Below the pieces are notes generated by a model, which saw nothing but the letters and a program-made list of their open reading frames with translations, did not search any database and was not told the DNA's origin. From positions 1 through 47,747 of the IMG/VR virus record IMGVR_UViG_3300048917_000249: a stretch of 47,747 bases of DNA, one strand, 5' to 3'. The translations under genes and the position numbers were made by a program. Positions 1 to 47,747 of the stretch are shown here, in pieces (the first letter of the stretch is position 1; each line of letters begins with the position of its first letter). This stretch comes from a virus.

Positions 1-127
1 CCCTGCAGCAGGCGCGCAACCGCCGCAACCTGGCAGAGCACCCGGCCGAGACGCCGATACTCAACACCGTCGGTGCTGTCGCCACCGCGCCGCTCACCGC
101 GCTGCGCGGCCTCGGCATTGGCTCGCT
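1..127. repeat. 127-bp terminal direct repeat, identical to 47621..47747 (circular-closure overlap)
   Basis: Read directly: ccctgcagcaggcgcgcaacc...ggcattggctcgct is present at both ends of the window. Confidence 0.95.
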
Positions 128-1679: not shown

Positions 1680-1680
1680 C

Positions 1681-4623
1681 ATGGCCTACATGGATGAAAT
1701 GGCGCTGGAGCGGGAGAAGTCCCGGCAGGCCATGATCGCCGGCAAGACGCCGATGTTTGGCGCCGATACCACGGCGGCCATGCACCAGCTCGGCATCAGC
1801 CTGGGTGTGATCCCGCCAGGCACGCCGCCGAGCCAGACCACCCAGGTGCTGGAGGGGCTGCTCAAGGGTGGCGGACTGGGCAAGATCAAGGTCGACGAGG
1901 CCACCCCACTCCAGGTGCCGACCCTGGCCGGCCGGATGACGGCGTCGCTGGCGCCGCACGGCCAGGCCGACGACGGCACCGGCGCCACGCTCGGTGCCAT
2001 ATTCAAGGGCGCCTCGGACAGTGCACTGCAACAGATGCTCCGCAACCAGCAGCGGCAGCAGGGACCAACGGCACCCGCCGGACCGGGGCCGGTGCAGGGG
2101 CCATACCGACCTGGGCCAGGCGCTAACCGGGCCAGGTTGAATGCACCGATGGCGCCGTCAGCCGCGGGCCCCGGTTACCAGGCCGACCTGGCCTACCTGC
2201 AAGAACGCGGCGGCCACCACAGCGTGCTGAAGGACGGCAAGATCGTTGACGCGCCGCTGACCCAGGCCGGCGGCTACAAGCAGATCGACCCCGAGCTCGC
2301 CGCCAGACTGCGCGCCGCCGGCGAGGCCTATGAGAAACAGAACCCAGGACAGAAGGCCCAATACGGCGAGTTCTCTCGCGGCGAAGACGTCCAGAAGATC
2401 TACCGCGACAGGTACGAAGCCGGCACCGGCGGCATCGCCGCCAGGCCGGGTGGCTCCCAACACCAGCACGGCGGCGCCGGCGACCTGCCGGATAGCGGTT
2501 TCAGGAAGTGGCTGTACGCCGGCAACCAGGACCAATTCGGACTCCACTTCCCGGTCAAAGGCGACGCCCCGCACGTCCAAGCCAACCCGGCTTACAAAGG
2601 GCAACCATTCTCTCAGCCAGCCCCGGCAGCGGGTGCGACACCGGCAGCGGGCGCGGCACCAGCCGGAGGCAATGCCGCTGGCGTGCCGCCGGAGCTATCG
2701 GCCTGGGTCGCCAAGAAAGAGAACTTCACCGACAAAGCCTTCGCCGATTACGGCGGTACCAACATCGGCTACGGCACGGCCGCCAACGGCCGCACCAGCA
2801 TCGACGAGCCGACCGCCCGCGCGGAAATGAATGCCGAGCTGAGCAAGCACCTGGCGACGATCGACGCGCTCAACCCGAACACCCCACCAGCAATCCGAAA
2901 CTCCCTGGCTTCGCTCGGCTTCAACACCGGCGGCGCGGCCCTCAAAGGCACCGGCCTGGCCGCCGCGGTGAAGGCCGGCGATTGGGCCAAGGCCAAAGAG
3001 ATCTTCATGCAGTATGACAAAGTCACCGACAGCGCCGGCAACAAAAAGCCGCTGCACGGCCTGACCATCCGCCGCGGCCAGGAGGCGCAAGCCTTCGACA
3101 ATCCGAACTTCTACAAAGACCCCAAGGCTGGGACGACGGCGGCACAGGATTGGGGTGGCAAGCAACATCCGGCGGCGCAACCCACAGCTCCTGCACAGGC
3201 TACTCCACAGGCTGCGGTACAGCCTGCGGCACCGGCGGCACCGGCTACGGAGCCCGCCAAGGCCGATGCCACGGTTGCTCCACAGGCTTCTCCACAGCTC
3301 GGTCCGTCTGGAGAAGAACCATTGCTGCCGGAAACGCCGGCGGATACACCAGCAACACCTGCGACACCGCCGGCCGCGCCGGCACCAGCTCCCGTGGCCG
3401 CGTCCCCAACCGCAGCACCGGCAGCGGCGGCGCCGGTTCCGCCCCCCGTGGCAGCTCCCCCTGTTGCAGAAGCGGTAAAACCGGCGCCGCCAGCGCCGCC
3501 GCCGGCGCCCGCGCCACCGCCGAAACCTGCGGCGCCCGCGGTCAACCCAGCCCATGCCATCCTCGACACCAAGATTGGCGACCTGGTGAAGCGCGGCGGT
3601 ACGCCGGCGCAGGCCGCGCAGGTGCCGGGCTGGATCGCCAATAAAACCCTGCGCGAGGGAATGAACATGCCCATAGTCGGCGGCCAGATCGCCGCCGGGG
3701 TGGAGCCGTACTTCGGCAAGATGGGCATCACCAAGCAGCAGTTTGACCAGGCCGTGAAGGAAGGTCCACCGAAGGCGGCGACGCTCGGCAAACGCAGTGA
3801 CCTCGGTACCTCGGACGCCACCGATTTCAGCGCCGCGCGCCGTCGGCCGGTGGACCCCAATGCAGCAACCCTGGATCCACTCCAACAGAAGCCGGTACAG
3901 AACGCCGACGGCTCAATCTCGACCGTGCGGACGATTGGCATCGAGGACCAAGGCAAGGAGGTTAACATCCCGACCGTGCCGCCCGAGGGTGGGAAGATCA
4001 TGTCGAATGCCGAGGCCGAGCAACGCTACCGCGACACCGGCAAGCACCTCGGCAAGTTCGATTCGGTCGAGGCGGCCGGCGCCGCCGCGGAGAAGCTGCA
4101 CCAGGACGAGGCGTCACGGATCTCCGAGCAACCGCAGGGTCAGCAGCCGGCGATGACGCCGGAGATTGCCAAGGCCCTGACCGACGCTTTCAAGGATCAG
4201 GACCGGGTAGCGCCGAATGCACCACCAACGTCGACACCGGCGGATGCGTTGCCGGTGCTGCCGGCGCAGCCCGCCGGACCCGCATCCGGTGGCGGGCTGT
4301 CGCTGGCACCCGCCGGTTTGAGCTCGATCCCGACCGGGGCGCTGCCGACCGGCGCACCGGGTAGCCAGGGCGGCGGCATCGCCATGGCCGGCATGCTGCC
4401 GCCGATCGAGAACAGCACCTACTCGACGCCGCTGCTCGACACCGCGGCAGCGAACCGTTCAAGCTTCGGCGCGCCCGGCCTGTCACCGATACCGATGCAG
4501 ACGCTGGGTGGCTGGGGCTGGGGTGGCGGCGGCAACATCGGTGCCGGGCTGGACTGGGGCGGTGGCTTCGACTTCGGCAGCGGCTCGAGTTCTATGCCGA
4601 TTATTGGCGGAGGCGGCTGGTAG
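1681..4623 (+). CDS. Large internal virion/ejection protein with M15-like peptidase and GH24 lysozyme-like domains
   Basis: ATG 1681 lies 2 nt after the upstream stop. SQHQHGGAGD...DAPH matches the zinc DD/LD-peptidase pattern (~2200-2590). KKENFTDKAFADYGGTNIGYG...RRGQEAQAF is lysozyme-like (~2690-3100). A Pro/Ala linker spans ~3170-3540, and the C-terminus is Gly/Trp-rich. Confidence 0.75.
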   Translation: MAYMDEMALEREKSRQAMIAGKTPMFGADTTAAMHQLGISLGVIPPGTPPSQTTQVLEGLLKGGGLGKIKVDEATPLQVPTLAGRMTASLAPHGQADDGTGATLGAIFKGASDSALQQMLRNQQRQQGPTAPAGPGPVQGPYRPGPGANRARLNAPMAPSAAGPGYQADLAYLQERGGHHSVLKDGKIVDAPLTQAGGYKQIDPELAARLRAAGEAYEKQNPGQKAQYGEFSRGEDVQKIYRDRYEAGTGGIAARPGGSQHQHGGAGDLPDSGFRKWLYAGNQDQFGLHFPVKGDAPHVQANPAYKGQPFSQPAPAAGATPAAGAAPAGGNAAGVPPELSAWVAKKENFTDKAFADYGGTNIGYGTAANGRTSIDEPTARAEMNAELSKHLATIDALNPNTPPAIRNSLASLGFNTGGAALKGTGLAAAVKAGDWAKAKEIFMQYDKVTDSAGNKKPLHGLTIRRGQEAQAFDNPNFYKDPKAGTTAAQDWGGKQHPAAQPTAPAQATPQAAVQPAAPAAPATEPAKADATVAPQASPQLGPSGEEPLLPETPADTPATPATPPAAPAPAPVAASPTAAPAAAAPVPPPVAAPPVAEAVKPAPPAPPPAPAPPPKPAAPAVNPAHAILDTKIGDLVKRGGTPAQAAQVPGWIANKTLREGMNMPIVGGQIAAGVEPYFGKMGITKQQFDQAVKEGPPKAATLGKRSDLGTSDATDFSAARRRPVDPNAATLDPLQQKPVQNADGSISTVRTIGIEDQGKEVNIPTVPPEGGKIMSNAEAEQRYRDTGKHLGKFDSVEAAGAAAEKLHQDEASRISEQPQGQQPAMTPEIAKALTDAFKDQDRVAPNAPPTSTPADALPVLPAQPAGPASGGGLSLAPAGLSSIPTGALPTGAPGSQGGGIAMAGMLPPIENSTYSTPLLDTAAANRSSFGAPGLSPIPMQTLGGWGWGGGGNIGAGLDWGGGFDFGSGSSSMPIIGGGGW

Positions 4624-8988: not shown

Positions 8989-9545
8989 TGCGCGTGCTGG
9001 TGGCCTGCGAGTTCAGCGGCATAGTCCGCAGCGCCTTCCGCCAGCGCGGCCACGATGCATGGTCCTGCGACCTGTTGCCGGCCGAGGATGGCGACTTTCA
9101 TCATCTGCAATGCGATGTCAGGGATATCATGACGCGGCCGGGCTGGGATCTGATGATCGCGCACCCGCCCTGCACCCACCTCGCCGTCAGCGGCGCCCGG
9201 TGGTTCAAGGACAAGCCGAAGGAGCAGGCTGACGCGCTCGCTTTCGTGCGGACCCTGCTCGACGCGCCGGTGCCGCGCATCGCGCTGGAGAACCCGATCA
9301 GCATCATCTCGTCGCGAATCCGCAAGCCAGACCAGATCATCCAGCCGTGGATGTTCGGCCACGGCGAGGTCAAGGCGACCTGTCTCTGGCTCAAGAATCT
9401 TCCGGCGCTGGCGCCGGCCGCCGTCGTCGACGGCCGCAAGCCGCGGGTGCATTTCGTGTCACCCGGCCCGGATCGGTGGAAAGCGCGCAGCCGGACACTA
9501 CCGGGCATCGCTGCCGCCATGGCAGACCAGTGGGGGAGAGCATGA
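8988..9545 (+). CDS. short C5-cytosine DNA methyltransferase-like protein
   Basis: VACEFSG (motif I-like), AHPPCTHLAVSG (PC motif IV-like), ALENP (ENV motif-like). No obvious target-recognition domain at 185 aa. Confidence 0.5.
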   Translation: MRVLVACEFSGIVRSAFRQRGHDAWSCDLLPAEDGDFHHLQCDVRDIMTRPGWDLMIAHPPCTHLAVSGARWFKDKPKEQADALAFVRTLLDAPVPRIALENPISIISSRIRKPDQIIQPWMFGHGEVKATCLWLKNLPALAPAAVVDGRKPRVHFVSPGPDRWKARSRTLPGIAAAMADQWGRA

Positions 9546-10105
9546 GCCAACCCTGGACCCACACCGCCGGCGCCAAAGCCTATCCACGCATCAATGAACA
9601 TTACGTAGAGCCGAGTTGGGTAAGTGAGCGGCTGTTTGAAGAGGAAACATTCATCGGTGGGGTGTTCGATCCCGCTTGTGGGTTCGGCCGCATCGTGGAA
9701 TCGGCAGTCGAACATGGGCTGGATGCGTACGGTTCAGATATCGTCGATCGTGGCAACGGTTACCCGATCGCAAATTTTTTCGATACCACCGATATGCACG
9801 ACAGTGTTGTGTCAAACCCTCCCTTTGACGTCTTCGAGAAGTTCGCTATCCGCGCGCTGACGCTGGCCCGCGACAAGGTGGCACTGATCATGCCGACCGC
9901 ACGGCTCAACGCCGCGCATTGGTTAGAAGAAACACCGCTGCGGCGCGTCTGGTTGTTGACCCCGCGGCCGTCGATGCCGCCGGGCCATGTCATCACGAAC
10001 AAGGGCAAGGTGGGTGGCGGCAAAAGCGACTACTGTTGGATTGTTATGGAGCACGGATATAGTGGCAAACCAGAGATGCAATGGTTGCACCGGGATGAAG
10101 CGTGA
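9542..10105 (+). CDS. N6-adenine (or N4-cytosine) DNA methyltransferase
   Basis: ATGA start overlap. VFDPACGFG (AdoMet motif I) and SNPPF (motif IV). Confidence 0.7.
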   Translation: MSQPWTHTAGAKAYPRINEHYVEPSWVSERLFEEETFIGGVFDPACGFGRIVESAVEHGLDAYGSDIVDRGNGYPIANFFDTTDMHDSVVSNPPFDVFEKFAIRALTLARDKVALIMPTARLNAAHWLEETPLRRVWLLTPRPSMPPGHVITNKGKVGGGKSDYCWIVMEHGYSGKPEMQWLHRDEA

Positions 10106-38182: not shown

Positions 38183-39304
38183 ATGCCTGTTTATACCGCG
38201 CCACTACTCGCGCATATCACCACTGCTGCTCTCGATTGGTGGATGAACAAAGGGACCGCCTTCCAGGAGGCGATCCAGGAGAAGCCGCTGCTCGCGGCGA
38301 TGGAGTCCAAGAAGAAATCGTTCCCGGGCGGCAAGGGCAATATTGTCATTAGCGTCAAGGGAGATTACGGCAACACGGCCGCGCCCGGCACCGATGATCA
38401 GCTCAAAGGCTATGAGCTGGCCGACAGCGTGACCTACTACACGCCGGCCAACCTGACCCAGGCGATCTTCCCCTGGAAGGAACACCACATCGGCATCATG
38501 ATGACGCACTCGGAACTGAAGTCCGATGGCATCAGCGTTACCGATGGCCCTGGCATGGAGGAGGACACCTCCGAGCATTCCGGCCGTGACGATACCGTCC
38601 TGGTCGGCCTGCTGCAGGACGCCTTGCAAGACGTCTCCGAGCAGTATGCCCGCGGCATGAACAACCTGCTGTGGACCAACGGTGCCACGGACGCCAAGGC
38701 CCTCGCCGGCATGGCGGCACTTATCACCGACGATCCGACCACCGGCATTGTCGCCGGCATCAACCGCGGCCAGAAGCCGTGGTGGAGAAACCGCGCCTAC
38801 ACGACCGCAATGGGTGCAGCTGTGACAGCCACACCGGCGCTGTCGGCATGGGGTGGCGGACCGATCACCTCGGCCGCGGCCAACGGCGGTGCGTTGATCA
38901 CCTTGCTCCAGAAGGAGTATCGGCAGCTGACCCGGTACGGCGCCAAGCCGAACACTGGGTTCTGTGGATCCGACTGGCTCACCGCCCTGGAGACAGAGCT
39001 GCGTGCCAACGGCAACTACTCGATGCAGGGCTTCTCCGGCGGCAAAGACATCTCGGTCGGTCAGATCTCCTACATGGGAACCGACTTCGAGTATGACCCG
39101 ACGCTCGATCAGCTCGGCAAGAGCAAGCGTTGCTATTGGTATGACTCGCGAGACATCTACCTGGTTGCCATGCAGGACGAGTGGCGGCACCAGCATTCAC
39201 CCGAGCGGGCACCCGACAAGTACGTCATCTACCGCTCGATCACTTCGACCGGACAACTCTGTGCGCGGCGTCTTAACGGCGCTGTCGTGATGGATATTGC
39301 CTGA
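38183..39304 (+). CDS. major capsid protein
   Basis: Position after the scaffold gene and a size of 373 aa fit a major capsid protein. No motif-level proof. Confidence 0.7.
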   Translation: MPVYTAPLLAHITTAALDWWMNKGTAFQEAIQEKPLLAAMESKKKSFPGGKGNIVISVKGDYGNTAAPGTDDQLKGYELADSVTYYTPANLTQAIFPWKEHHIGIMMTHSELKSDGISVTDGPGMEEDTSEHSGRDDTVLVGLLQDALQDVSEQYARGMNNLLWTNGATDAKALAGMAALITDDPTTGIVAGINRGQKPWWRNRAYTTAMGAAVTATPALSAWGGGPITSAAANGGALITLLQKEYRQLTRYGAKPNTGFCGSDWLTALETELRANGNYSMQGFSGGKDISVGQISYMGTDFEYDPTLDQLGKSKRCYWYDSRDIYLVAMQDEWRHQHSPERAPDKYVIYRSITSTGQLCARRLNGAVVMDIA

Positions 39305-41042: not shown

Positions 41043-42401
41043 ATGACCAACTGCCACGTCACGCCTGGTGGTGAGATCGAGAAGCGGATGGCTTTCGTGC
41101 CATTCTGGGCGTGCGATCCATTGAGCAAAGGCATCGTCGAAGTTAACCAGAAGCTCTACGCCTTCGGCCCGAACGGCCCCTACACCGTCGAGCCGCCGTC
41201 CGGCACCTGGTCGGTTGGTGTCCTTGGACAAGCCACGCCAACCATCTTTGAAATCATCGACTACGACCTGTTCGACAACAAGGTCTTCACCCTGTTGTGG
41301 AAGGACGCTGCCGGCACGGTCGGCCGCTACTACGACGGCGTCGACCAGCCGTGGGCGCGCGGCTTCTATTGCCGGACCTACAAGAACAAGATGTACACGG
41401 TGGAAAACTCCATCTTGTATTTTTCCGCCAACGGCAATGCGGGTGACTGGTCTGGCTTGAACCCGAACGACCCGTCGAAATACACCAACTACATCGACCT
41501 CTCGTTGGGCGACAGCGACATGTCCGACAGCGTGGCGCTGGAGGTGTACTACGACAAGCTGGCGATCTTCTCATCGACCGCGGTGCAGCTGTGGATCATG
41601 GACCCGGACTTCACCAAGAACCAGTACGTCCAGACCCTGCGTCAGGCCGGCACCACGGCCTGGCGCAGCGTGATGCAGTATGGCTCCGGCGACGTGATGT
41701 ACCTGTCGCAGTCCGGCGTCAGATCGCTCCGCGCTAGAAACTCTTCACTAGCCGCGGCGGTGTCCGACATCGGCTCGCCGCTGGATCCGCTGCTGCAGGA
41801 TCTGTTCCGCAGCATGGGCCAGGACTGGATGAGCGGCACCATCGCGCTGCTGCAGCCGGTCACCGGAAGATTCTGGATCATCATGGCCGGATCCAAAGCC
41901 ACACCTGACGCGCCGCTGACATCTAAAATATACGTTCTATCGGCCTTCCCCGGCCCGAAGATCACGGCTTGGAGTGAGTACGACGCCGGCTTCGTCATCA
42001 CCGCGGCCTGCATATACAAGAACCGTGTGGTGGTTCGCGACGACAAGAATCAGGTCTACGCCTACGGCGGCATCTCCGACATCGGTCCGACTTATGATAA
42101 TTGCCCGGTCGAGCTGATCTTCCCATTCCACGCCGGCGAGGGTGTCGCCACCTTCAAGTCCTTTGCCGCGCTCGATGCCACCTGCTCCGGCGTACCCTGG
42201 CAAGTATCGGCCGCGTTCAATGTTCAGGATTCCACGGTCGAGGACTTCATCGGCATCTTCGACGGCCCGTCGTTCCCGCAAGGCAAGATCCAGCTGTACG
42301 GCCACACCACTCACATGTCGCTGCGGCTGCGCTCGCAGGACATCGGCCCGCAGGTGCTGTCCAACCTGATCGTCCACTACCAGGGAGGTGAGACCGGATG
42401 A
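41043..42401 (+). CDS. virion structural protein (tail hub/nozzle candidate); the 5' end is probably longer
   Basis: Track ORF. The same frame is open back to 40902 and reads ...TFTITDFAAGLDLRRSELTAPAGTLRA before M1. A strong RBS with an ATG sits at 40955 in another frame. Confidence 0.7.
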   Translation: MTNCHVTPGGEIEKRMAFVPFWACDPLSKGIVEVNQKLYAFGPNGPYTVEPPSGTWSVGVLGQATPTIFEIIDYDLFDNKVFTLLWKDAAGTVGRYYDGVDQPWARGFYCRTYKNKMYTVENSILYFSANGNAGDWSGLNPNDPSKYTNYIDLSLGDSDMSDSVALEVYYDKLAIFSSTAVQLWIMDPDFTKNQYVQTLRQAGTTAWRSVMQYGSGDVMYLSQSGVRSLRARNSSLAAAVSDIGSPLDPLLQDLFRSMGQDWMSGTIALLQPVTGRFWIIMAGSKATPDAPLTSKIYVLSAFPGPKITAWSEYDAGFVITAACIYKNRVVVRDDKNQVYAYGGISDIGPTYDNCPVELIFPFHAGEGVATFKSFAALDATCSGVPWQVSAAFNVQDSTVEDFIGIFDGPSFPQGKIQLYGHTTHMSLRLRSQDIGPQVLSNLIVHYQGGETG

Positions 42402-42916
42402 TCAACATCGCGGTCGCCGACCGGGGCATGATCGATCATGTGCTGCAAGGCCTGCGTGCGGCCGATGTCGAAGAGATGACCGCGGCCGGCACCGACATCG
42501 GCAAGCTCGCCGTGCAGATCATGCGACACAAGCTGTTTGCTTTTTGCGCCTGGGGCTTTGACTGCGGTCCAATCGCAGTGTGGGGCCTGGTGCAGAAGCG
42601 CCAGGGCGTCGGTGCCGGATTCGCCTTCGGCACTGACGACTGGGGCCGCGCCGTGCTACCAATGGTCAAGCAGATCCGCGGATTTGTCCTGCCACTATTA
42701 GTCGACCTGAATATCCACCGCGTCGAGGCGGTGGCAATGCGTAAGCGCGACGATGTCAGACGTTTCATGAGTTTGATTGGTGCCAAGGCCGAAGGCACGC
42801 TGACCGGCTATGGCACTTACGGCGAAGACTTTGTCTCTTACCGATGGCTATCTGATGAATATGGCAGTCACCGAACTCAAGAAGCCCAAGCGGACTGTGC
42901 GTACCCCGCACATTAA
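42398..42916 (+). CDS. T7 gp13-like/DUF2833-like (acetyltransferase-fold) internal virion protein
   Basis: RAADVEEM...CGPIAVWGL...GAGFAFGTDDW...RFMSLIGAKAEG resembles the gp13/DUF2833 pattern as I recall it. Confidence 0.5.
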   Translation: MINIAVADRGMIDHVLQGLRAADVEEMTAAGTDIGKLAVQIMRHKLFAFCAWGFDCGPIAVWGLVQKRQGVGAGFAFGTDDWGRAVLPMVKQIRGFVLPLLVDLNIHRVEAVAMRKRDDVRRFMSLIGAKAEGTLTGYGTYGEDFVSYRWLSDEYGSHRTQEAQADCAYPAH

Positions 42917-43364
42917 TATCCGCATGGGCGAGTCCAAGGATGCGGCGATGGTCGCCGAATTCCTCGGGCATTTCTTCGAGCTGTCGAAGTGGTCGGAGTT
43001 CCTGAAGTATCACCAGGAGCGGACCAGGGTGTACCTGCAAGCCGCGATCGGCACTCAGTTCGCCATGTACGTCCTGGCGATGGACGGCGAGGAAATGGTG
43101 GGTGTCTGTTCCTACCATGTGTTCGGTGTGTTCTCTGAACCAATGGCGGTGATGGACGAGACTTACACTATACCAAAGTATCGCCGCACTGACCTTGGGC
43201 GCAGGTTGATCGAAACCGTCATCACGCTGGCCCGCGCCGATGGCTGCAAGGTGATGAATTTTCCCATCTGCTCGGGGATGAAGGAGCAGAACTCCCTCAT
43301 GAACATGATCGGCCGGCACTTCGGCGCCGAGCCGGTCGGCATGATCTTCAGAAAGAAACTCTGA
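42861..43364 (+). CDS. GNAT-family N-acetyltransferase
   Basis: VMDETYTIPKYRRTDLGRRLIETVITLARADGCKVM is GNAT motif A-like. The start is 42855, 42861 or 42810. Confidence 0.65.
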   Translation: MAVTELKKPKRTVRTPHINIRMGESKDAAMVAEFLGHFFELSKWSEFLKYHQERTRVYLQAAIGTQFAMYVLAMDGEEMVGVCSYHVFGVFSEPMAVMDETYTIPKYRRTDLGRRLIETVITLARADGCKVMNFPICSGMKEQNSLMNMIGRHFGAEPVGMIFRKKL

Positions 43365-43365
43365 T

Positions 43366-43389
43366 ATGACAGTCAACGGACAGGTGTGA
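43366..43389 (+). other. 7-codon mini-ORF (MTVNGQV*) ending in the conserved stop-start cassette
   Basis: Read directly: atg aca gtc aac gga cag gtg tga, then c, then ATG 43391. Confidence 0.35.
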
Positions 43390-43390
43390 C

Positions 43391-43684
43391 ATGGGCGGCA
43401 AAGGCAGAAGCAATCAGCAGATGCAGACGGAAACCGCCCCACCGCCGCCGGCGCCTGACGTGCCACTGCCAGCTGCACCTGAAGCGCCGCCGCCACCGCC
43501 GCCACCGCCGCCACCGCCACCACCAGACGTGCCGCCACCGGCGGCACCGCCGCCTGACATTACGCCGATCTCGCCAGGCGAGGCGATAAGCCAGGTGGAA
43601 GTGACAAAGGATCCCACGAAAACAACCGGCGACTTGCTGGCGCAATCCGTTGCGGATCCCACCAACCTAACCGGGCAGGTGTGA
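43391..43684 (+). CDS. small MGGK-initiated protein 1, poly-proline (97 aa)
   Basis: Starts MGGKGRS and ends TGQV*. Contains 13 consecutive Pro codons. Confidence 0.7.
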   Translation: MGGKGRSNQQMQTETAPPPPAPDVPLPAAPEAPPPPPPPPPPPPPDVPPPAAPPPDITPISPGEAISQVEVTKDPTKTTGDLLAQSVADPTNLTGQV

Positions 43685-43685
43685 C

Positions 43686-44024
43686 ATGGGCGGCAAGGGC
43701 GGCGGCGGCGGCAACTACTACCAGCAACCCGTCGACAAGTCGGGCAATTCCACGCTGGAGGAAGCGACCAAGACGCTCGCCAACACGGCGCCGGTCGACA
43801 TGTCCAAGATCCAGTCGAACATCGACGTCAAGAAAGCCGCCGCGGCCGCGACCGCGAAGCCGCAGGATACCGTAACCAGTGTTACCGCACCGGCCGAAGG
43901 CGTGTCCGGCACCGAAACCACCAAAGACACCACCGGAGACGTCGCCAAGAAGGCTGTACTGACGCCGCCGAAGTTCTGGGAAGATTACGCAAAAGATCCC
44001 AATACAACAAACACACAGGTGTGA
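43686..44024 (+). CDS. small MGGK-initiated protein 2 (112 aa)
   Basis: Starts MGGKGGG and ends NTQV*. The junction is identical to the other two. Confidence 0.7.
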   Translation: MGGKGGGGGNYYQQPVDKSGNSTLEEATKTLANTAPVDMSKIQSNIDVKKAAAAATAKPQDTVTSVTAPAEGVSGTETTKDTTGDVAKKAVLTPPKFWEDYAKDPNTTNTQV

Positions 44025-44025
44025 C

Positions 44026-44670
44026 ATGGGTGGCAAAAGCGGACCATCAAATAACCAAGCCGTGCAGCTGCAGATGCAGCAGGCGCAGGAAGCCAGGGAC
44101 AAGGAGAACGCGCGCCAGGCCCGGCTCAACCAGGGCAAGACCGCGATCGATAACATCTTTGGTAACGACAACTTCGGCGATCCGTTCTACGACAAGTATA
44201 AGAACGCCGAGCTGGACTACACGCTGCCGCAGCTGAGTACCCAGTACACCGAAGCGAAACGTAACGCCGAGAATGACCTGGCTCGAGCTGGTCTGCTGCG
44301 ATCAGGCGCTGCCGGCTTCGTGCAGAACAAGCTGACCCAGCAGCAGGGCGTCAATGAAGCAGGGCTCCGCGCCAAGGCCGACACTGATACAGCGGCGTTG
44401 CGACAGAGCATCGCCGCCCAACAGCAGCAAGCCTACAACCAGCTGTACGCCACCGAAGACCCGACCGTCGCTGCCAACACGGCCGCTAACTCGGCCGCCA
44501 ATGCCCAGCTGCAACAGCCGAACGTCAGCGCGTTAGGTGATATGTTCAAGCCGATCGCGATCGGCCTGGGCTCGGCGATCGCACCAACGTATGGGCAGTC
44601 TGAAGCCAACCGTCAGCTCGCTGCCGCCAGCGGCCGCGGCCAGGGCAACATAACTACGACGCAGGGTTAA
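44026..44670 (+). CDS. MGGK-initiated protein 3, Gln/Ala-rich (214 aa)
   Basis: Starts MGGKSGP. The sequence has an internal-protein-like composition. Confidence 0.75.
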   Translation: MGGKSGPSNNQAVQLQMQQAQEARDKENARQARLNQGKTAIDNIFGNDNFGDPFYDKYKNAELDYTLPQLSTQYTEAKRNAENDLARAGLLRSGAAGFVQNKLTQQQGVNEAGLRAKADTDTAALRQSIAAQQQQAYNQLYATEDPTVAANTAANSAANAQLQQPNVSALGDMFKPIAIGLGSAIAPTYGQSEANRQLAAASGRGQGNITTTQG

Positions 44671-44674
44671 GCTT

Positions 44675-45370
44675 ATGTGCGACCCGATCTCGATCATTGG
44701 CTTAGGCTTCTCGATCGGCATGCAGATGTACAACATGCAGCAGCAAGCCGACATGGCGAGCCAGCAGCAGTCTGCCAATGATCAATGGGTCGCCTACCAG
44801 CGCAAGCAGTCGCAGGACTTCCAGGCCCGCGACGAGAGCCTGCGCCAGAACGCCGAGGCGGCGCGGCATGGCTCGCTTGATGAGCTCAGCGCCGCCAACC
44901 AAACGATAGCGCAAGGCAAGGAAGCCGACCGGCTGACGACATCGTTGACGCCGGAAGACATTGCCAAGCAGGCGGCTGGTGATCCGAATGCGCTCGCCAG
45001 CGCGATGTTTTCGGGCCAGCAGGGCGGCTCGCAGGAGATGCAGACCCAGATCCAGGGCAGCATCCAGCAGGCCGCGGTCGAGGCCCGCAAGCGCATTGCC
45101 GCGCTCGCCAACGTGCAGTCCTACGGCGGCTCGCAGTACGGTCTGACCAACCGCGCCAACACCATCTTCAATGCTGCAGGGCAGGACATCCGCCTGGCCG
45201 GCAACGAACGCGCCGGCGACCTGTCGGCCTACAATATCGCCAAGGCGGTCGAACCCATTCACATCGCGCAGTACAGTGGCGGTTCGGCTGGCGGCCTGGC
45301 GACCGCCGGCGCCCAGTTCACAGGCCAGCGGCTCGGCAACACGCTGGCATCGAGCATGGGGAGCGCCTGA
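44675..45370 (+). CDS. internal virion protein with a hydrophobic N-terminus (231 aa)
   Basis: N-terminus MCDPISIIGLGFSIGMQMY, with Gln/Ala-rich sequence after it. Confidence 0.7.
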   Translation: MCDPISIIGLGFSIGMQMYNMQQQADMASQQQSANDQWVAYQRKQSQDFQARDESLRQNAEAARHGSLDELSAANQTIAQGKEADRLTTSLTPEDIAKQAAGDPNALASAMFSGQQGGSQEMQTQIQGSIQQAAVEARKRIAALANVQSYGGSQYGLTNRANTIFNAAGQDIRLAGNERAGDLSAYNIAKAVEPIHIAQYSGGSAGGLATAGAQFTGQRLGNTLASSMGSA

Positions 45371-47163
45371 TGGCCTCGGATTTCCTGCGGTTCCAGCAAG
45401 ATCCTTCGCTGGGTAATGCGTTAACCGGCATCGTCTCCGACATCGCCGCCGCGCCCGGCAAGGCGTTGAGCAACACCCATACGGTCGAGGAAATCCTGGC
45501 GCTGCGCGCCAAGCAGAAGCGCGACCAGGCGGAATTCGACGCCAACACCGCCGCCGGCAACGCTACAGCTGCTGCCTTAGCCGGCGTCGGGCCGCCGTTG
45601 AGCACGCGCGATGTTCAGTTTCAACCGCAAGGGCCGGTTAATCCGGCCGATCCGGTCGACCCCAATGCCGTGAAGCTCGGCGACCAGATGGTGCTGCCAT
45701 CATATGCGTCGACCGAGCAGTACATCGACCCGAAGGTGGCCGAACGGTACAAGCGCGAGCTGCCGATGTTTCAGGGTATCGCCAAGGCGGAAGCCTACAA
45801 GAATCCAGGCGGCGTTCCCGGCATCTATTCCAGGGCTTCTATCGGCCTGGGTGGCGCCCCGACCGATCCGGCCGAGATGCAGCGGCTGTCCGGCATCACC
45901 ACCGGCACGGTCACGCCACTCAAGGGCGAGCCCTACGTCGCCGTGTCACCGGACGGCAAGACCCAAATGGTCCTCGGCATGTCCCCGGATGGCGGTGTCC
46001 ACGACATGCAAGGCCGGCTCATGAAAGACATCGCGCCACAAGGCACCGTCCCTGTGCAGGCCAGTAACGTAAATGTCGGGGCTAAGCCGCACTCGATATT
46101 CGAGAACGAAGGCACTCGAATGGCGGCGATCACGGACGCCAACAATGCCGTCCTCGCTGGCAAGCCGCCCAATCCAGCAGACACCCGTAACATATCGATC
46201 GCGATCCGCCAGCAGTACCCGGAGATCAATAAGCTGATGCCCGACGCCGTCGGCAACACCACGGAATTCCGCAACTACGTCGAGAGGGAAGCACCGCCAG
46301 AAATGCAGCCGATCCTGCGGCACATCTACAATACGCTGCCGGAATTCAAACAGCCGCAGGCGGCGGCCGCGGTGCCGGGCGCTGATCCGTCGACTGCGGG
46401 CGCCGTGGTGCAGCAGGCGACCCCGACCCTGCCGGGGATGCGGCCGGCCACCGGCCCGCAGCCGAACATCCTCGTCAATCAGCCGGCCAGTCAGTACCAG
46501 AATCATCTGGGCTTTGCGGTTCAGCGCGCCGACACCGAGCGCCAGCACATCGTGTCGATGATCTTCAACGGCCAGCCAATACCGCCGTCGGGGATGCTGC
46601 CGAAGGATGCCTACCTGCCGGACTGGAAGGCGGCGCTGATCGCCGAGAACCACCCCGATGGGCTCATCAGCAGACAGCTGATGAACGCGGTCGACCCCAA
46701 AGCGCAGGAATATTACGCCGCGGCCAAAGCCTGGATCGAGCCGGTGCTGCGGCTGGCCTCGGGCGCCGCGATCCGAACCGAAGAATACAAAGACTACATG
46801 TACATGTTCATCCCGATGACCGGCGACAGTCAGCAGCTGGTCGCGCAGAAGCTCAACCGCATGCGGGAATGGCAAGAAGCGACCGGCGGCAACGCCACCG
46901 CCAACCAGGCCACCGCCACCTTGATTGCCAAGGCTAATGCGAACAAAGACCCTGAGATGGCCCGCCTGGCCAGCATGATGCAGATCAGGGCCAGGGAAGC
47001 CAAAACCGCCGACATCCCGGCAACCCAATTGCCGGCGGTCGCGCCAAAGGCGCCGGGTGCTCCGGGTGCTACAGGTGCCAACGTACCGAACCCAGCCGCG
47101 GTGCAATCGCTCATGAACACGATCCGGGGCAGCGGTGGCGGTGCAGAAACAGGAGGACTGTAA
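45370..47163 (+). CDS. large internal virion (ejection) protein (597 aa)
   Basis: ATG overlaps the upstream TGA. Position fits an internal protein, but no motif was recognised. Confidence 0.75.
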   Translation: MASDFLRFQQDPSLGNALTGIVSDIAAAPGKALSNTHTVEEILALRAKQKRDQAEFDANTAAGNATAAALAGVGPPLSTRDVQFQPQGPVNPADPVDPNAVKLGDQMVLPSYASTEQYIDPKVAERYKRELPMFQGIAKAEAYKNPGGVPGIYSRASIGLGGAPTDPAEMQRLSGITTGTVTPLKGEPYVAVSPDGKTQMVLGMSPDGGVHDMQGRLMKDIAPQGTVPVQASNVNVGAKPHSIFENEGTRMAAITDANNAVLAGKPPNPADTRNISIAIRQQYPEINKLMPDAVGNTTEFRNYVEREAPPEMQPILRHIYNTLPEFKQPQAAAAVPGADPSTAGAVVQQATPTLPGMRPATGPQPNILVNQPASQYQNHLGFAVQRADTERQHIVSMIFNGQPIPPSGMLPKDAYLPDWKAALIAENHPDGLISRQLMNAVDPKAQEYYAAAKAWIEPVLRLASGAAIRTEEYKDYMYMFIPMTGDSQQLVAQKLNRMREWQEATGGNATANQATATLIAKANANKDPEMARLASMMQIRAREAKTADIPATQLPAVAPKAPGAPGATGANVPNPAAVQSLMNTIRGSGGGAETGGL

Positions 47164-47747
47164 ATGGCCGAGCAGCCTCCGTTGTCGCGCGAAGAACTGA
47201 CCAACTACCTGGGGAAGGCCACCCCGGGTTCGCAGGAATATGTCACCGCCAAACAGCTGCTCGACGCCATGCCGCCGGCGCCCGGTACGCCTGGCGCCCC
47301 GTCGCCGCCAACCTACAGCAGCGAGACTGGCATCAAGCCGTTTGGGCCGCCGGACATCAACTACCAGGCGCCGGTCGCAGACGTCCGCAGTTCGCTGGCA
47401 CCGCTGCCGGAAGCCGATCGCACCGCCGGTCTGAACAAGTGGGCCGACATCCAGGAGCAGCAGCAGAACGCCCAAGGTGGGCCACTGCGTAAGCTCGGCG
47501 ATATCACCCGCAGTATTGTTCAGGGCACTCCGGCCGGCAACTGGCCCGATCGCGCCAACGCCTACGTCAGCTCCAAGCTGCCGGAATCCTATGGCGGCCG
47601 ACCCTACGATGAGGCGCTGGCCCTGCAGCAGGCGCGCAACCGCCGCAACCTGGCAGAGCACCCGGCCGAGACGCCGATACTCAACACCGTCGGTGCTGTC
47701 GCCACCGCGCCGCTCACCGCGCTGCGCGGCCTCGGCATTGGCTCGCT
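47164..47747 (+). CDS. N-terminal part of the wrap-around internal virion protein (continues at base 128 and ends 1679; 711 codons in total)
   Basis: TAAATG junction at 47161-47166. Hand translation MAEQPPLSREELTNYLGK... runs without a stop to the window end. Confidence 0.8.
   Translation, partial: MAEQPPLSREELTNYLGKATPGSQEYVTAKQLLDAMPPAPGTPGAPSPPTYSSETGIKPFGPPDINYQAPVADVRSSLAPLPEADRTAGLNKWADIQEQQQNAQGGPLRKLGDITRSIVQGTPAGNWPDRANAYVSSKLPESYGGRPYDEALALQQARNRRNLAEHPAETPILNTVGAVATAPLTALRGLGIGS

What the first reader, a model, noticed from the sequence alone, without database searches (positions are those of the whole stretch)
43366..44040. An identical stop-start cassette (CAGGTGTGAcATGGGyGGCAA) is reiterated three times, creating a train of MGGK-initiated cistrons
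The exact 15-mer CAGGTGTGACATGGG occurs at 43381, 43676 and 44016. In each case it encodes ...Q-V-stop, then one nucleotide, then M-G-G-K of the next gene, so each successive cistron is in the +1 frame. The first copy terminates a 7-codon mini-ORF (MTVNGQV*) that begins 2 nt after the GNAT stop codon. The mini-ORF looks like a vestigial or dedicated coupling ORF. AGGTG within the cassette can serve as the Shine-Dalgarno for the next ATG. Outside the cassette the three proteins are unrelated in composition (poly-Pro, Thr/Lys/Ala-rich, Gln/Ala-rich). What is conserved is therefore the junction and the N-terminal MGGK(G/S), not the protein bodies. This points to a selected translational-coupling or stoichiometry device, to a selected N-terminal tag, or to both.
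Basis: seen in the sequence. Interest (0 to 1): 0.7.

Follow-up and report, generated by a model that had tools for sequence, protein, structure and literature searches.

The report
Tandem MGGK-tagged small phage genes
The thrice-repeated 15-mer marks the boundaries between tandem copies of a small, fast-evolving gene family in a phage's DNA-ejection operon; the repeat reflects conserved protein ends plus a ribosome-binding site, not a special DNA device, though the conserved MGGK start right after an acetyltransferase gene is a testable lead.

Summary
CAGGTGTGACATGGG occurs exactly three times, each as Q-V-stop, one base, M-G-G-K.

Over 100 related loci (metagenomic phages, Bradyrhizobium, Brucella and Rhizobiales prophages, Rhizobium phage RHph_N65) show what is conserved. 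After a T7 gp13-like gene and a GNAT gene, every close relative has 1-5 consecutive cistrons starting MGGK. Their Gly and Lys codons vary synonymously. Stop codons and spacers (-1 to 13 nt, mostly 9) also vary, and only 9 of 75 distinct junctions carry the cassette. Selection therefore acts on the peptide ends, not the DNA.

The 97-aa and 112-aa proteins are not unrelated. Both carry the family's C-terminal module (HMM E 8e-6 and 2e-7).

The 7-codon mini-ORF is the last 8 codons of a deleted first family member, which is intact in near-identical relatives.

All junctions in this operon are tight, so coupling is not specific to the cassette.

Most likely this is a tandem paralog family of largely disordered internal or ejected virion proteins. 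Local homogenisation explains the nucleotide identity.

Why MG[GK]K is conserved is inferred, not shown. It may be an address tag, or a substrate of the adjacent GNAT.

The parts
42398..42916 (+). T7 gp13-like internal virion protein A (IVP-A), a non-structural assembly factor with an acetyltransferase-like fold
   Evidence: phrog_308 at E 2.5e-9. T7 gp13 itself hits phrog_308 at 1e-42. Homologs occupy the same position in all relatives. The acetyltransferase-like nature of IVP-A is from PMC4819975.
42855..43364 (+). GNAT acetyltransferase gene; in relatives its stop overlaps the first MGGK start (TGATG)
   Evidence: PF00583 at 37.9 bits against a cutoff of 20.7, and phrog_1249. It lies immediately upstream of the MGGK genes in nearly all relatives.
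43366..43389 (+). 7-codon mini-ORF MTVNGQV*, the remnant of a deleted first family member
   Evidence: It aligns with the last 8 codons of L030 gene 1 (...GSMTVNGQV*). The roughly 400-nt gene is intact in L007-L009 (131 aa) and L030 (141 aa).
43381..43395 (+). Junction copy 1: Q-V-stop, C, M-G
43391..43684 (+). 97-aa MGGK protein: a 13-proline run and a truncated family C-terminal module (TTGDLLAQSVADPTNLTGQV)
   Evidence: The C-module HMM gives E 7.7e-6. Orthologs in L007-L009 and L054.
43676..43690 (+). Junction copy 2
43686..44024 (+). 112-aa MGGKGGGGGNYY protein, the conserved last small member of the train; predicted largely disordered
   Evidence: Orthologs in most close relatives. 46 homolog clusters in 5.8e9 proteins and 14 representatives in 1.84e9. 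The C-module HMM gives E 1.6e-7. AlphaFold2 pLDDT 57.5, pTM 0.18.
44016..44030 (+). Junction copy 3
44026..44670 (+). 214-aa MGGKSGPSNN protein, the conserved helical protein of the ejection module; its N-terminal 8 residues are flexible
   Evidence: Homologs in more than 100 loci, always downstream of the GNAT: directly after it in distant relatives, after the small MGGK genes in the close clade. AlphaFold2 pLDDT 82, with helices at 9-44, 52-87, 94-143 and 146-161. No PDB fold match.
44675..45370 (+). 231-aa MCDPISIIGLG... protein, next member of the operon, with a hydrophobic N-terminus
   Evidence: Conserved in relatives. T7 gp14 also starts MC followed by a hydrophobic stretch, but BLASTP is not significant.
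45370..47163 (+). 597-aa downstream operon protein (its stop-start is a TGATG overlap); orthologs mostly start MGS

Best explanation
The three copies are the boundaries between tandem paralogous genes. These lie in the internal-virion (ejection) protein operon of a temperate podovirus-type phage of Bradyrhizobium-like hosts.

Each junction consists of four pieces:
- the last codons of one family member (..T-x-Q-V)
- its stop codon
- a Shine-Dalgarno sequence that in this lineage sits inside the last two sense codons (cAG GTG)
- the first codons of the next member (M-G-G-K)

Shown:
- The peptide ends are under purifying selection, while the nucleotides, spacer and stop codon are free to vary.
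- The 97-aa and 112-aa proteins belong to one family. It has a Gly-rich MGGK N-terminus, a variable low-complexity middle and a conserved C-terminal module.
- Family members are gained and lost precisely at the junctions.
- The mini-ORF is what remains of one such loss.

Inferred:
- The exact 15-21 nt identity within this genome comes from recent duplication or gene conversion between junctions.
- Ribosomes pass from cistron to cistron by termination-reinitiation, as at all the other tight junctions of this operon.
- The proteins are mostly disordered virion-internal or ejected proteins, comparable to T7 gp7.3 and gp6.7.
- Their C-terminal module is an anchoring peptide.
- Their flexible G-G-K N-terminus (after Met removal) is a handle recognised or modified by the gp13-like and GNAT pair encoded just upstream.
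For: Peptide-level rather than DNA-level conservation:
- All 53 close relatives carry 1-5 consecutive MGGK cistrons after the GNAT.
- Codon 2 is GGC 42, GGT 30, GGA 3. Codon 4 is AAA 47, AAG 28.
- Only 9 of 75 distinct junctions have CAGGTGTGAC.
- Spacers run from -1 to 13 nt. The upstream stop is TGA 31, TAG 19, TAA 2.
- The C-terminal Q-V is encoded as CAA GTA in other clades.

Paralogy:
- The family alignment shows N-terminal MGGK(G)n and a C-terminal TGDxLxxxVLxPPxYW...GSxxTTQT.
- An HMM of the C-terminal 55 aa was built without the window proteins or their orthologs. Among 687 six-frame segments of the window it ranks the 112-aa ORF first (1.6e-7) and the 97-aa ORF second (7.7e-6).

Gain and loss at junctions:
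- The window lacks gene 1 except for its last 8 codons.
- L019 lacks gene 1 exactly from ATG to ATG compared with L011.
- Copy number varies from 1 to 5.

Homogenisation:
- Junction identity within a genome is 0.44, against 0.375 between genomes; 22 of 5000 permutations reach this.
- The Bradyrhizobium prophage repeats a different junction, GGGAGyGTGTGATGGG.

Operon context:
- A gp13 homolog, a GNAT, and a downstream transglycosylase-domain protein are present, and the genome is circular.
- There is no promoter, terminator or Rfam hit in the region, and the junction RNAs are less structured than shuffles.
- All operon junctions are tight.

Disorder:
- The 112-aa model has pLDDT 57.5. In p214, residues 1-8 precede the first helix.
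- In T7 gp7.3 (MGKK..., 99 aa) only the C-terminal loop is ordered; it anchors in the nozzle channel, and the protein is ejected (PMC11784390).

Link to the GNAT:
- p214 homologs that follow a GNAT start MG[GK]K, MGGG, MSGGGK, MAGS or MSGS across lineages down to about 30% identity.
- The three GNAT-less relatives start MC... instead.
Against: - There is no direct evidence that any of these proteins is in the virion, ejected or modified.
- No sequence or profile homology to T7 gp7.3 was found (hhalign probability 0.1%). No PHROG or Pfam family matches.
- p214 has no structural match in the PDB.
- Some family members start MPW, MPY or MPT instead of MGGK. The N-terminal tag is therefore not required for every member.
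- The within-genome homogenisation signal is modest, and the genomes are phylogenetically non-independent.
- The three GNAT-less loci may represent a single evolutionary event, and one GNAT-positive locus (L127) starts MCFGGG.
- A small residue at position 2 is common in proteins generally.
Confidence: 0.72

Rival explanations
1. The MGGK N-terminus is specifically the substrate of the adjacent GNAT. After methionine removal, the enzyme acetylates or acylates the N-terminal glycine or Lys4 of the proteins encoded downstream. That requirement is why the motif is conserved on several cistrons. This refines the tag step of the best explanation rather than replacing all of it.
For: - The GNAT passes Pfam's threshold.
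- Its stop overlaps the first MGGK start (TGATG) in nearly all relatives.
- The GNAT followed by an MG.. protein is conserved down to about 30% identity, in Rhizobium phage RHph_N65 and in Brucella and Rhizobiales prophages.
- The three relatives without the GNAT have MC.. N-termini instead.
- The N-terminal 8 residues of p214 are flexible and exposed in the model.
Against: - The GNAT's substrate cannot be read from its sequence. The best PDB and NCBIfam hits are weak and mixed: polyamine, aminoglycoside and RimI-type enzymes, E 0.0005-0.03.
- Family members starting MP.. exist.
- L127 has a GNAT but an MC start.
- The GNAT-less loci may be one clade.
- The GNAT could instead be a host-directed effector or a second IVP-A-like chaperone.
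Confidence: 0.3
2. [quoted passage not shown] They would direct a variable set of cargo proteins into the procapsid core or the portal-tail channel. The variable middles would be host-interaction or counter-defence functions.
For: - The ends are conserved, the middles are highly variable and the copy number is variable.
- The genes sit inside the internal-virion-protein operon next to the IVP-A assembly factor.
- In T4, diverse internal proteins share only a conserved targeting sequence (PMC3012670).
- The C-terminal anchoring of T7 gp7.3 is a precedent for a terminal peptide doing the docking.
Against: - The middles are mostly Pro/Ala-rich and low-complexity with no recognisable domains, which makes them unlikely enzymes or inhibitors.
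- No prohead protease or cleavage motif was identified.
- No virion data exist.
Confidence: 0.3
3. One reading: the nucleotide cassette itself is a selected translational-coupling or stoichiometry device.
For: - Three exact copies in one genome, and the same cassette in the closest relatives L007-L009, L030, L053 and L054.
- AGGTG is complementary to the anti-SD sequence.
- The 1-nt stop-start gap favours reinitiation.
- The deletion that made the mini-ORF preserved an unbroken chain of 1-nt junctions.
Against: - Only 9 of 75 distinct junctions in the family carry it.
- Most use a 9-nt spacer with TGAGGA or TAGGAG.
- Orthologous junctions differ between clades while the peptides stay the same.
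- The other operon junctions are equally tight without the cassette.
Confidence: 0.1
4. The short repeats function mainly as recombination sites that shuffle, duplicate or delete gene cassettes, like the boundary sequences proposed for modular phage evolution.
For: - Gene presence/absence polymorphisms have end points at the junctions.
- Copy number varies from 1 to 5.
- Junctions are somewhat more alike within genomes than between them.
Against: - No nucleotide motif is conserved across the family.
- The similarity is explained by coding and SD constraints.
- No dedicated recombinase is nearby.
- Recombination at the repeats is better seen as a consequence than a function.
Confidence: 0.1
5. 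The junction is a programmed +1 frameshift (prfB-like: SD, XXX UGA C, next frame +1) or a readthrough site that fuses successive cistrons into a polyprotein.
For: The geometry resembles prfB superficially: UGA followed by C, an upstream SD-like AGGUG, and the next ORF in the +1 frame. In relatives, 27 of 52 junctions have spacers of 9 or 12 nt, which would be in frame.
Against: - The P-site codon GUG cannot re-pair in the +1 frame (UGU). This rests on established codon-anticodon rules.
- The SD overlaps the P-site codon instead of lying 3 nt upstream.
- Frame relations differ among relatives (-1, 1, 2, 8, 9, 10...).
- Every downstream ORF keeps its own ATG (GTG for the 97-aa ortholog in L007-L009) and a conserved Met-Gly-Gly-Lys, which makes sense only for a true N-terminus.
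Confidence: 0.03

Closest known systems
T4 internal proteins (IPI, IPII, IPIII and alt-locus variants) with the N-terminal capsid targeting sequence
   Same: Several adjacent genes for virion-internal proteins share only a short conserved terminal peptide. Their bodies and gene number vary between related phages (PMC3012670; compare).
   Different: This is a different phage type (podovirus-like rather than a myovirus). The tag sequence is different. A second conserved module is present at the C-terminus. No prohead protease or tag cleavage is known here. The bodies are low-complexity rather than folded inhibitors. Encapsidation is untested.
T7 gp7.3 (PF11653) and gp6.7, the small ejected virion proteins
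   Same: Both are small (88-99 aa against 97-200 aa) and mostly disordered. gp7.3 starts MGKK, and only its C-terminal peptide (..KKSLSVARSSGGGINI) is ordered. That peptide anchors in the tail channel, and the protein is ejected at infection. The family here ends in ..GSLSVTK..GSLTTTQT or ..TGQV.
   Different: No detectable homology (hhalign probability 0.1%; no PF11653 or phrog_1320 hits). The genes sit between the gp13-like/GNAT genes and the larger ejection proteins, not upstream of the portal gene. Here the family is multi-copy and the proteins are acidic or neutral, whereas gp7.3's N-terminal part is mostly positively charged.
Podovirus internal virion / ejection protein operon (T7 gp13-gp16; P22 gp14, gp7, gp20, gp16)
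   Same: The gene order matches: tail hub protein, gp13-like IVP-A, then a series of helical proteins ending in a large protein with a muralytic domain (PMC4819975; PMC8954989).
   Different: There is an extra canonical GNAT gene and an expandable train of small MGGK genes between IVP-A and the larger proteins. p214 and the 231-aa protein have no sequence or fold match to gp14 or gp7.
Translational coupling by overlapping or abutting stop and start codons (TGATG, ATGA, stop-N-ATG) in phage late operons
   Same: There is a 1-nt gap between stop and start, an SD lies inside the upstream coding sequence, and the initiation region is unstructured.
   Different: Nothing mechanistically distinctive was found. 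The only unusual aspect is that three junctions are identical, which paralogy explains.
prfB (RF2) programmed +1 frameshift site
   Same: The superficial layout matches: an SD-like element, a sense codon, UGA followed by C, and a continuation in the +1 frame.
   Different: There is no slippery P-site codon, the SD position is wrong, the downstream ORF has its own conserved start, and the frame relation is not conserved in relatives.

Membership tests
Podovirus internal-virion-protein (ejection) operon, T7 gp13-gp16 type | A gp13 (IVP-A) homolog at the head of the module | tested here: met
   window 42398-42916 hits phrog_308 at E 2.5e-9. T7 gp13 hits the same family at 1e-42.
Podovirus internal-virion-protein (ejection) operon, T7 gp13-gp16 type | Position after the tail tube / hub genes, followed by large proteins including one with a muralytic domain | tested here: met
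   The major capsid gene is at 38183-39304. The 452-aa protein is homologous to the protein annotated 'packaged DNA stabilization protein' in Mae-Yong1326-1. The ORF at 1630-4623 has an endolysin-type domain. The genome is circular, with a 127-bp terminal overlap.
Podovirus internal-virion-protein (ejection) operon, T7 gp13-gp16 type | Sequence or fold homology of the approximately 200-aa protein to gp14 / P22 gp7 | tested here: not met
   No PHROG or Pfam hit for p214 or the 231-aa protein. The PDB profile search gave nothing below E 0.24. Foldseek against PDB gave nothing below E 1. BLASTP of the 231-aa protein against T7 gp14 gave E 0.12.
Podovirus internal-virion-protein (ejection) operon, T7 gp13-gp16 type | Proteins are packaged in the capsid and ejected into the host | not testable with these tools
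   Requires virion proteomics or infection assays.
T7 gp7.3 family (PF11653, phrog_1320) | Sequence or profile homology | tested here: not met
   hhalign of family alignment A4 against 120 gp7.3 homologs gave probability 0.1%. No Pfam or PHROG hits.
T7 gp7.3 family (PF11653, phrog_1320) | Small, largely disordered protein with a conserved terminal anchoring peptide | tested here: met
   AlphaFold2 pLDDT 57.5 and pTM 0.18 for the 112-aa protein. The conserved C-terminal module is shown. Any anchoring role is inferred only.
T4-type internal proteins with a capsid targeting sequence | A short conserved N-terminal peptide shared by otherwise divergent adjacent genes | tested here: met
   MGGK(G)n is on 1-5 adjacent cistrons in all close relatives.
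T4-type internal proteins with a capsid targeting sequence | The tag directs encapsidation and is removed by the prohead protease | not testable with these tools
   No protease was sought or found and no proteomic data exist.
GNAT acetyltransferases (PF00583) | Match to the family profile above the curated threshold | tested here: met
   37.9 bits against a cutoff of 20.7.
N-terminal (N-alpha) protein acetyl/acyltransferases (RimI/J/L, NMT-like) | Specific membership, or a demonstrated protein N-terminal substrate | tested here: inconclusive
   The rimI model scores only 17.6 bits against a cutoff of 86.4. Other weak hits are to aminoglycoside and polyamine enzymes. The substrate cannot be assigned from sequence.
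prfB-like programmed +1 frameshift | P-site codon able to re-pair in the +1 frame, SD about 3 nt upstream, frame relation conserved | tested here: not met
   GUG to UGU cannot re-pair. The SD overlaps the P-site codon. Spacers of -1 to 13 nt in relatives give all three frame relations.

The most novel reading that the evidence does not exclude
The phage GNAT, translationally coupled to the MGGK genes, N-acylates or N-acetylates the glycine N-terminus (exposed after Met removal) or Lys4 of a set of ejection-module proteins. This would mark them for incorporation or help them engage the host envelope. It would be a bacterial-virus counterpart of the N-terminally myristoylated penetration proteins of non-enveloped eukaryotic viruses (picornavirus VP4, reovirus mu1N; this comparison comes from general knowledge and was not tested). 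The tandem expansion would then be a family of enzyme-tagged, rapidly diversifying ejected proteins.
Probability: 0.12. Interest if true: 0.85.

Novelty: new variant of a known kind. Interest (0 to 1): 0.45.

Why it matters
As a translational device the cassette is ordinary: abutting stop and start codons with an embedded SD, made identical by paralogy.

What the relatives reveal is more useful.
- It is an undescribed, expandable family of small disordered proteins in the ejection operon of Rhizobiales phages and prophages.
- It has no Pfam or PHROG family.
- Only 14 representatives of the 112-aa member's lineage exist among 1.84 billion proteins.
- Both of the family's termini are conserved.
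- The family sits directly behind a GNAT whose pairing with an MG[GK]K-type N-terminus persists to about 30% identity.

Small ejected proteins of podoviruses have only recently been placed structurally (T7 gp6.7 and gp7.3). How they are recruited is not explained in the papers read here. The role of the acetyltransferase-like gp13 family is also unclear.

This locus makes that question testable in culturable systems, namely the Bradyrhizobium ottawaense prophage and Rhizobium phage RHph_N65.

Tried and rejected
- Close cultured relatives: blastn of the region against 50,697 phage records found only poly-Pro low-complexity matches. tblastn of p214 found nothing. Only the capsid protein linked to Mae-Yong1326-1 and RHph_N65.
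- Homology of the small family to T7 gp7.3: the resemblance at the N-terminus (MGKK) and C-terminus (..SLSV..) looked promising. hhalign gave probability 0.1%, and PHROG scans of 32 members gave only scattered single hits. It is kept as an analogy only.
- p214 as a gp14 / gp7 homolog: a PDB sequence profile search and Foldseek on a good model gave only generic coiled-coil matches.
- GNAT as a recent duplicate of the gp13-like gene: BLASTP E 3.4, so not supported at the sequence level.
- GNAT substrate class from sequence: inconclusive.
- RNA element, promoter or terminator at the junctions: no Rfam hit, scans at background level, and junction RNAs less structured than shuffles.
- Programmed frameshift: rejected on codon re-pairing and the lack of frame conservation.
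- Assembly artefact: rejected. The cassette occurs in independent metagenome contigs, and the architecture occurs in isolate genomes.
- Literature: no paper in the library mentions an MGGK motif in phage proteins or N-terminal modification of podovirus ejection proteins by a phage GNAT.
Full report
OBSERVATION

The 15-mer CAGGTGTGACATGGG occurs at 43381, 43676 and 44016 on the + strand. It occurs nowhere else in the window, even with two mismatches allowed. Dinucleotide-preserving shuffles give a mean of 0.12 matches, and none of 100 reaches three.

Reading the sequence and the ORF list confirms the anatomy. Each copy is CAG GTG TGA (Q-V-stop), one C, then ATG GGy GGC AAr (M-G-G-K). The copies join ORFs 43391-43684 (97 aa), 43686-44024 (112 aa) and 44026-44670 (214 aa). 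Identity extends to about 21 nt and then decays.

The mini-ORF MTVNGQV* runs from 43366 to 43389. It begins one base after the GNAT stop codon (43362-43364), so it has the same stop-N-ATG geometry as the cassette.

GENOMIC CONTEXT

The window is a complete, circularly permuted phage genome. Its first and last 127 bases are identical, GC is 60.5%, and the unique length is about 47.6 kb.

It encodes a DNA polymerase, terminase, portal and major capsid protein. Just upstream of the finding lie three genes:
- A 452-aa protein. Its homolog in Microcystis phage Mae-Yong1326-1 is annotated 'packaged DNA stabilization protein'.
- A homolog of T7 gp13, the internal virion protein A. It hits phrog_308 at E 2.5e-9, and T7 gp13 itself hits that family at 1e-42.
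- A canonical GNAT acetyltransferase. PF00583 scores 37.9 bits against a threshold of 20.7.

Downstream come a 231-aa MCDPISI... protein, a 597-aa protein and, across the circular junction, a 997-aa protein with an endolysin-type domain. This is the layout of the podovirus internal-virion / ejection-protein operon (PMC4819975; PMC8954989).

All junctions in this operon are tight, with gaps of -4, +1, +1, +1, +1, +4, -1 and 0 (the GNAT start overlaps the gp13-like gene by 62 nt). The region has no promoter-like or terminator-like excess and no Rfam match. The three junction RNAs are less structured than shuffled controls, with z-scores of +1.0 to +1.8. This fits open initiation sites in a polycistronic mRNA.

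RELATIVES

A search with the 214-aa protein returned 53 viral contigs. An alignment-based search added about 40 more distant ones. Isolate genomes add further loci: a prophage in Bradyrhizobium ottawaense, prophages in Brucella anthropi and another Rhizobiales genome, and the cultured Rhizobium phage RHph_N65. The phage is therefore of a temperate type whose relatives infect Rhizobiales. The architecture is not an assembly artefact.

In every close relative the GNAT gene is followed by a train of 1-5 cistrons that start MGGK. In nearly all of them the GNAT stop overlaps the next start as TGATG. The last two members are conserved orthologs: a 112-121-aa protein starting MGGKGGGGGNYY and the 213-219-aa protein starting MGGKSGPSNN. 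The members before them vary in number and sequence.

WHAT IS CONSERVED

Among 75 distinct junctions upstream of MGGK starts, only 9 carry CAGGTGTGAC.
- Codon 2 is GGC 42, GGT 30, GGA 3.
- Codon 3 uses all four Gly codons.
- Codon 4 is AAA 47, AAG 28.
- The upstream stop is TGA 31, TAG 19, TAA 2.
- The spacer ranges from -1 to 13 nt, with 9 nt the commonest (26 of 52) and 1 nt in 8.

The C-terminal Q-V of the 112-aa ortholog is written CAA GTA TGA GGTGAC... in another clade. Selection therefore acts on the peptide ends, M-G-G-K and ..T-x-Q-(V/T/I), not on the nucleotide string.

THE SMALL PROTEINS ARE PARALOGS

Full sequences and a 32-member alignment show a common plan:
- MGGK followed by a glycine run
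- a variable segment
- a Pro/Ala-rich linker
- a conserved C-terminal module (..P-I-S-P-G..T-G-D-x-L-x-x-x-V-L-x-P-P-x-Y-W..) ending in G-S-x-x-T-T-Q-T, T-G-Q-V or S-L-T-K

I built an HMM from the last 55 residues of 23 members. The window's proteins, their close orthologs and all 112-aa orthologs were left out. Against all 687 six-frame segments of the window, it ranks the 112-aa ORF first (E 1.6e-7) and the 97-aa ORF second (E 7.7e-6). The 214-aa protein is third and marginal (E 0.028). So 'unrelated bodies' is not correct for the two small proteins. The 97-aa protein has a shortened version of the module.

Some members in other clades keep the C-terminal module but start MPW, MPY or MPT.

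THE MINI-ORF

In the near-identical relatives L007-L009 a 131-aa MGGK gene sits between the GNAT and the 97-aa gene. In L030 the equivalent gene ends ...GSMTVNGQV* and is followed by the same cassette.

The window's ATGACAGTCAACGGACAGGTGTGA aligns with those last 8 codons, and about 400 nt are missing. The mini-ORF is thus a deletion remnant. It still gives an uninterrupted chain of 1-nt stop-start junctions and keeps the SD for the next gene. Whether it is kept as a relay or is simply recent cannot be decided.

A second example of precise gene loss is L019. It lacks gene 1 exactly from ATG to ATG relative to L011.

WHY THE THREE COPIES ARE IDENTICAL IN THIS GENOME

Junctions are somewhat more alike within genomes than between them. 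Mean identity of the 21 nt before the ATG is 0.44 against 0.375, and 22 of 5000 permutations reach this. The genomes are related, so this is only indicative.

Some genomes repeat their own variant. L051 has two identical 36-mers, and the Bradyrhizobium prophage has GGGAGyGTGTGATGGG twice. L054, a fairly close relative, has the cassette at one junction but a 9-nt-spacer junction before its p214 ortholog.

The simplest reading is recent duplication or gene conversion between paralog ends, superimposed on the peptide and SD constraints. The same repeats are natural substrates for the observed gene gains and losses.

NATURE OF THE PROTEINS

The 112-aa family is rare and unannotated:
- 46 clusters among 5.8 billion proteins, all 'hypothetical'
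- 14 representatives among 1.84 billion
- no Pfam, PHROG or NCBIfam family

Its AlphaFold2 model is low-confidence with a few short helices (pLDDT 57.5, pTM 0.18), so as a monomer it is largely disordered.

The 214-aa protein gives a confident helical model (pLDDT 82). Residues 1-8 (MGGKSGPS) and 162-214 are disordered. It has no PDB fold match and no PDB sequence match.

The best functional analogy is T7 gp7.3 and gp6.7, small proteins ejected at infection. In gp7.3 (99 aa, MGKKVKK...KKSLSVARSSGGGINI) only the C-terminal loop is ordered. That loop anchors between nozzle subunits in the tail channel (PMC11784390). Profile-profile comparison finds no homology (probability 0.1%), so this remains an analogy.

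A second analogy is the T4 internal proteins: diverse bodies that share only a capsid targeting sequence (PMC3012670).

THE N-TERMINAL MOTIF AND THE GNAT

In distant relatives (about 30-50% identity in p214) the GNAT is still immediately upstream. The p214 homolog there starts MGGKS, MGKKGGG, MGKKDGG, MSKKDGG, MSGGGKGG, MAGGGKG, MGGGGGGG, MGGSNS, MGGGSS, MAGSAP or MSGS... One locus has MCFGGG.

The three relatives that lack the GNAT are Mae-Yong1326-1, L142 and L143. Their homologs start MCRLPGPK, M(GM)CGNNNK and MCAPSGDGG.

This co-occurrence, the translational coupling and the flexible exposed N-terminus fit the GNAT (and/or the acetyltransferase-like gp13 homolog) acting on, or handling, the G-G-K N-terminus. 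It rests on perhaps one independent loss. The GNAT's substrate class cannot be inferred from sequence, and MP-starting family members exist. I put this at about 0.3, and the stronger version (lipid-type acylation analogous to myristoylated penetration proteins) at about 0.12.

REJECTED ALTERNATIVES

A prfB-like +1 frameshift is excluded for three reasons:
- GUG cannot re-pair as UGU.
- The SD overlaps the P-site codon.
- Frame relations vary among relatives, while each ORF keeps its own start and conserved N-terminus.

A dedicated nucleotide coupling cassette is not supported by the comparative data. A dedicated recombination signal is unnecessary to explain the data.

VERDICT

The cassette is an ordinary coupled gene boundary, made conspicuous by tandem paralogy and local homogenisation.

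The underlying biology is a new variant of known kinds of virion-internal protein loci. It is an expandable family of small, disordered, doubly end-tagged proteins behind a GNAT in a podovirus ejection operon. It carries a testable hypothesis about N-terminal handling.

Noticed in passing
window 1-127 and 47621-47747: The first and last 127 bases are identical. The window is therefore a complete, circularly permuted (or terminally redundant) genome of about 47.6 kb, and the ejection operon runs across the window ends (the ORF starting at 47164 continues at the start of the window).
   Followed up: partly
window 44675-45370; L139 (T7) 565-831 and 9429-10019; L060, L142, L143: Several ejection-module proteins start with Met-Cys. 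Examples are the 231-aa MCDPISIIGLG... protein here (and all its orthologs), T7 gp14 (MCWAAAIPIA..), T7 gp6.7 (MCFSPKIK..) and the p214 homologs of the GNAT-less relatives. This is a second recurrent N-terminal dipeptide in this class of proteins, and its meaning is unknown.
   Followed up: partly
window 43391-43684 (Pro run encoded at about 43490-43530): The 97-aa protein contains 13 consecutive prolines and is 32% proline overall. Such runs normally need EF-P for translation. An ortholog in L054 has an even longer run, and L045 has an unrelated member with about 16 prolines.
   Followed up: no
window 42855-42916: The gp13-like gene and the GNAT gene overlap by 62 nt as called. A similar 47-nt overlap is called in the Bradyrhizobium prophage (L140 5801-5847). 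The two proteins show no pairwise sequence similarity (BLASTP E 3.4).
   Followed up: partly
L007-L009 (e.g. L007 3817): In three near-identical metagenomic relatives, the 97-aa ortholog follows the same cassette but starts with GTG instead of ATG (CAGGTGTGACGTGGGCGGCAAA).
   Followed up: no
L140 (Bradyrhizobium ottawaense GCA_041261765.1, JBGBZK010000001.1, about 3,573,979-3,588,620); L144 (Brucella anthropi OA9225); L145: The same module occurs in bacterial chromosomes, which points to temperate phages of Rhizobiales. RHph_N65 also carries an integrase. This provides culturable systems for experiments.
   Followed up: partly
related loci L010-L059, junctions between train genes: 27 of 52 distinct junctions have spacers of 9 or 12 nt. 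In those the downstream cistron is in frame with the upstream one, separated by a single stop codon (often TGA). This is probably just the optimal TGAGGA-N6-ATG geometry, but readthrough fusion in those relatives was not examined.
   Followed up: no
window 42765-43547 (-) and 43560-44171 (-): Long antisense ORFs (260 and 203 aa) overlap the GNAT and MGGK genes. No evidence for them was found, and they are most likely a by-product of the high GC content.
   Followed up: no
proteins P0252, P0253, P0256, P0269, P0275 (homologs of window 44026-44670): JGI names some p214 homologs 'microcystin-dependent protein'. This label does not fit their context and seems to be annotation carry-over.
   Followed up: no
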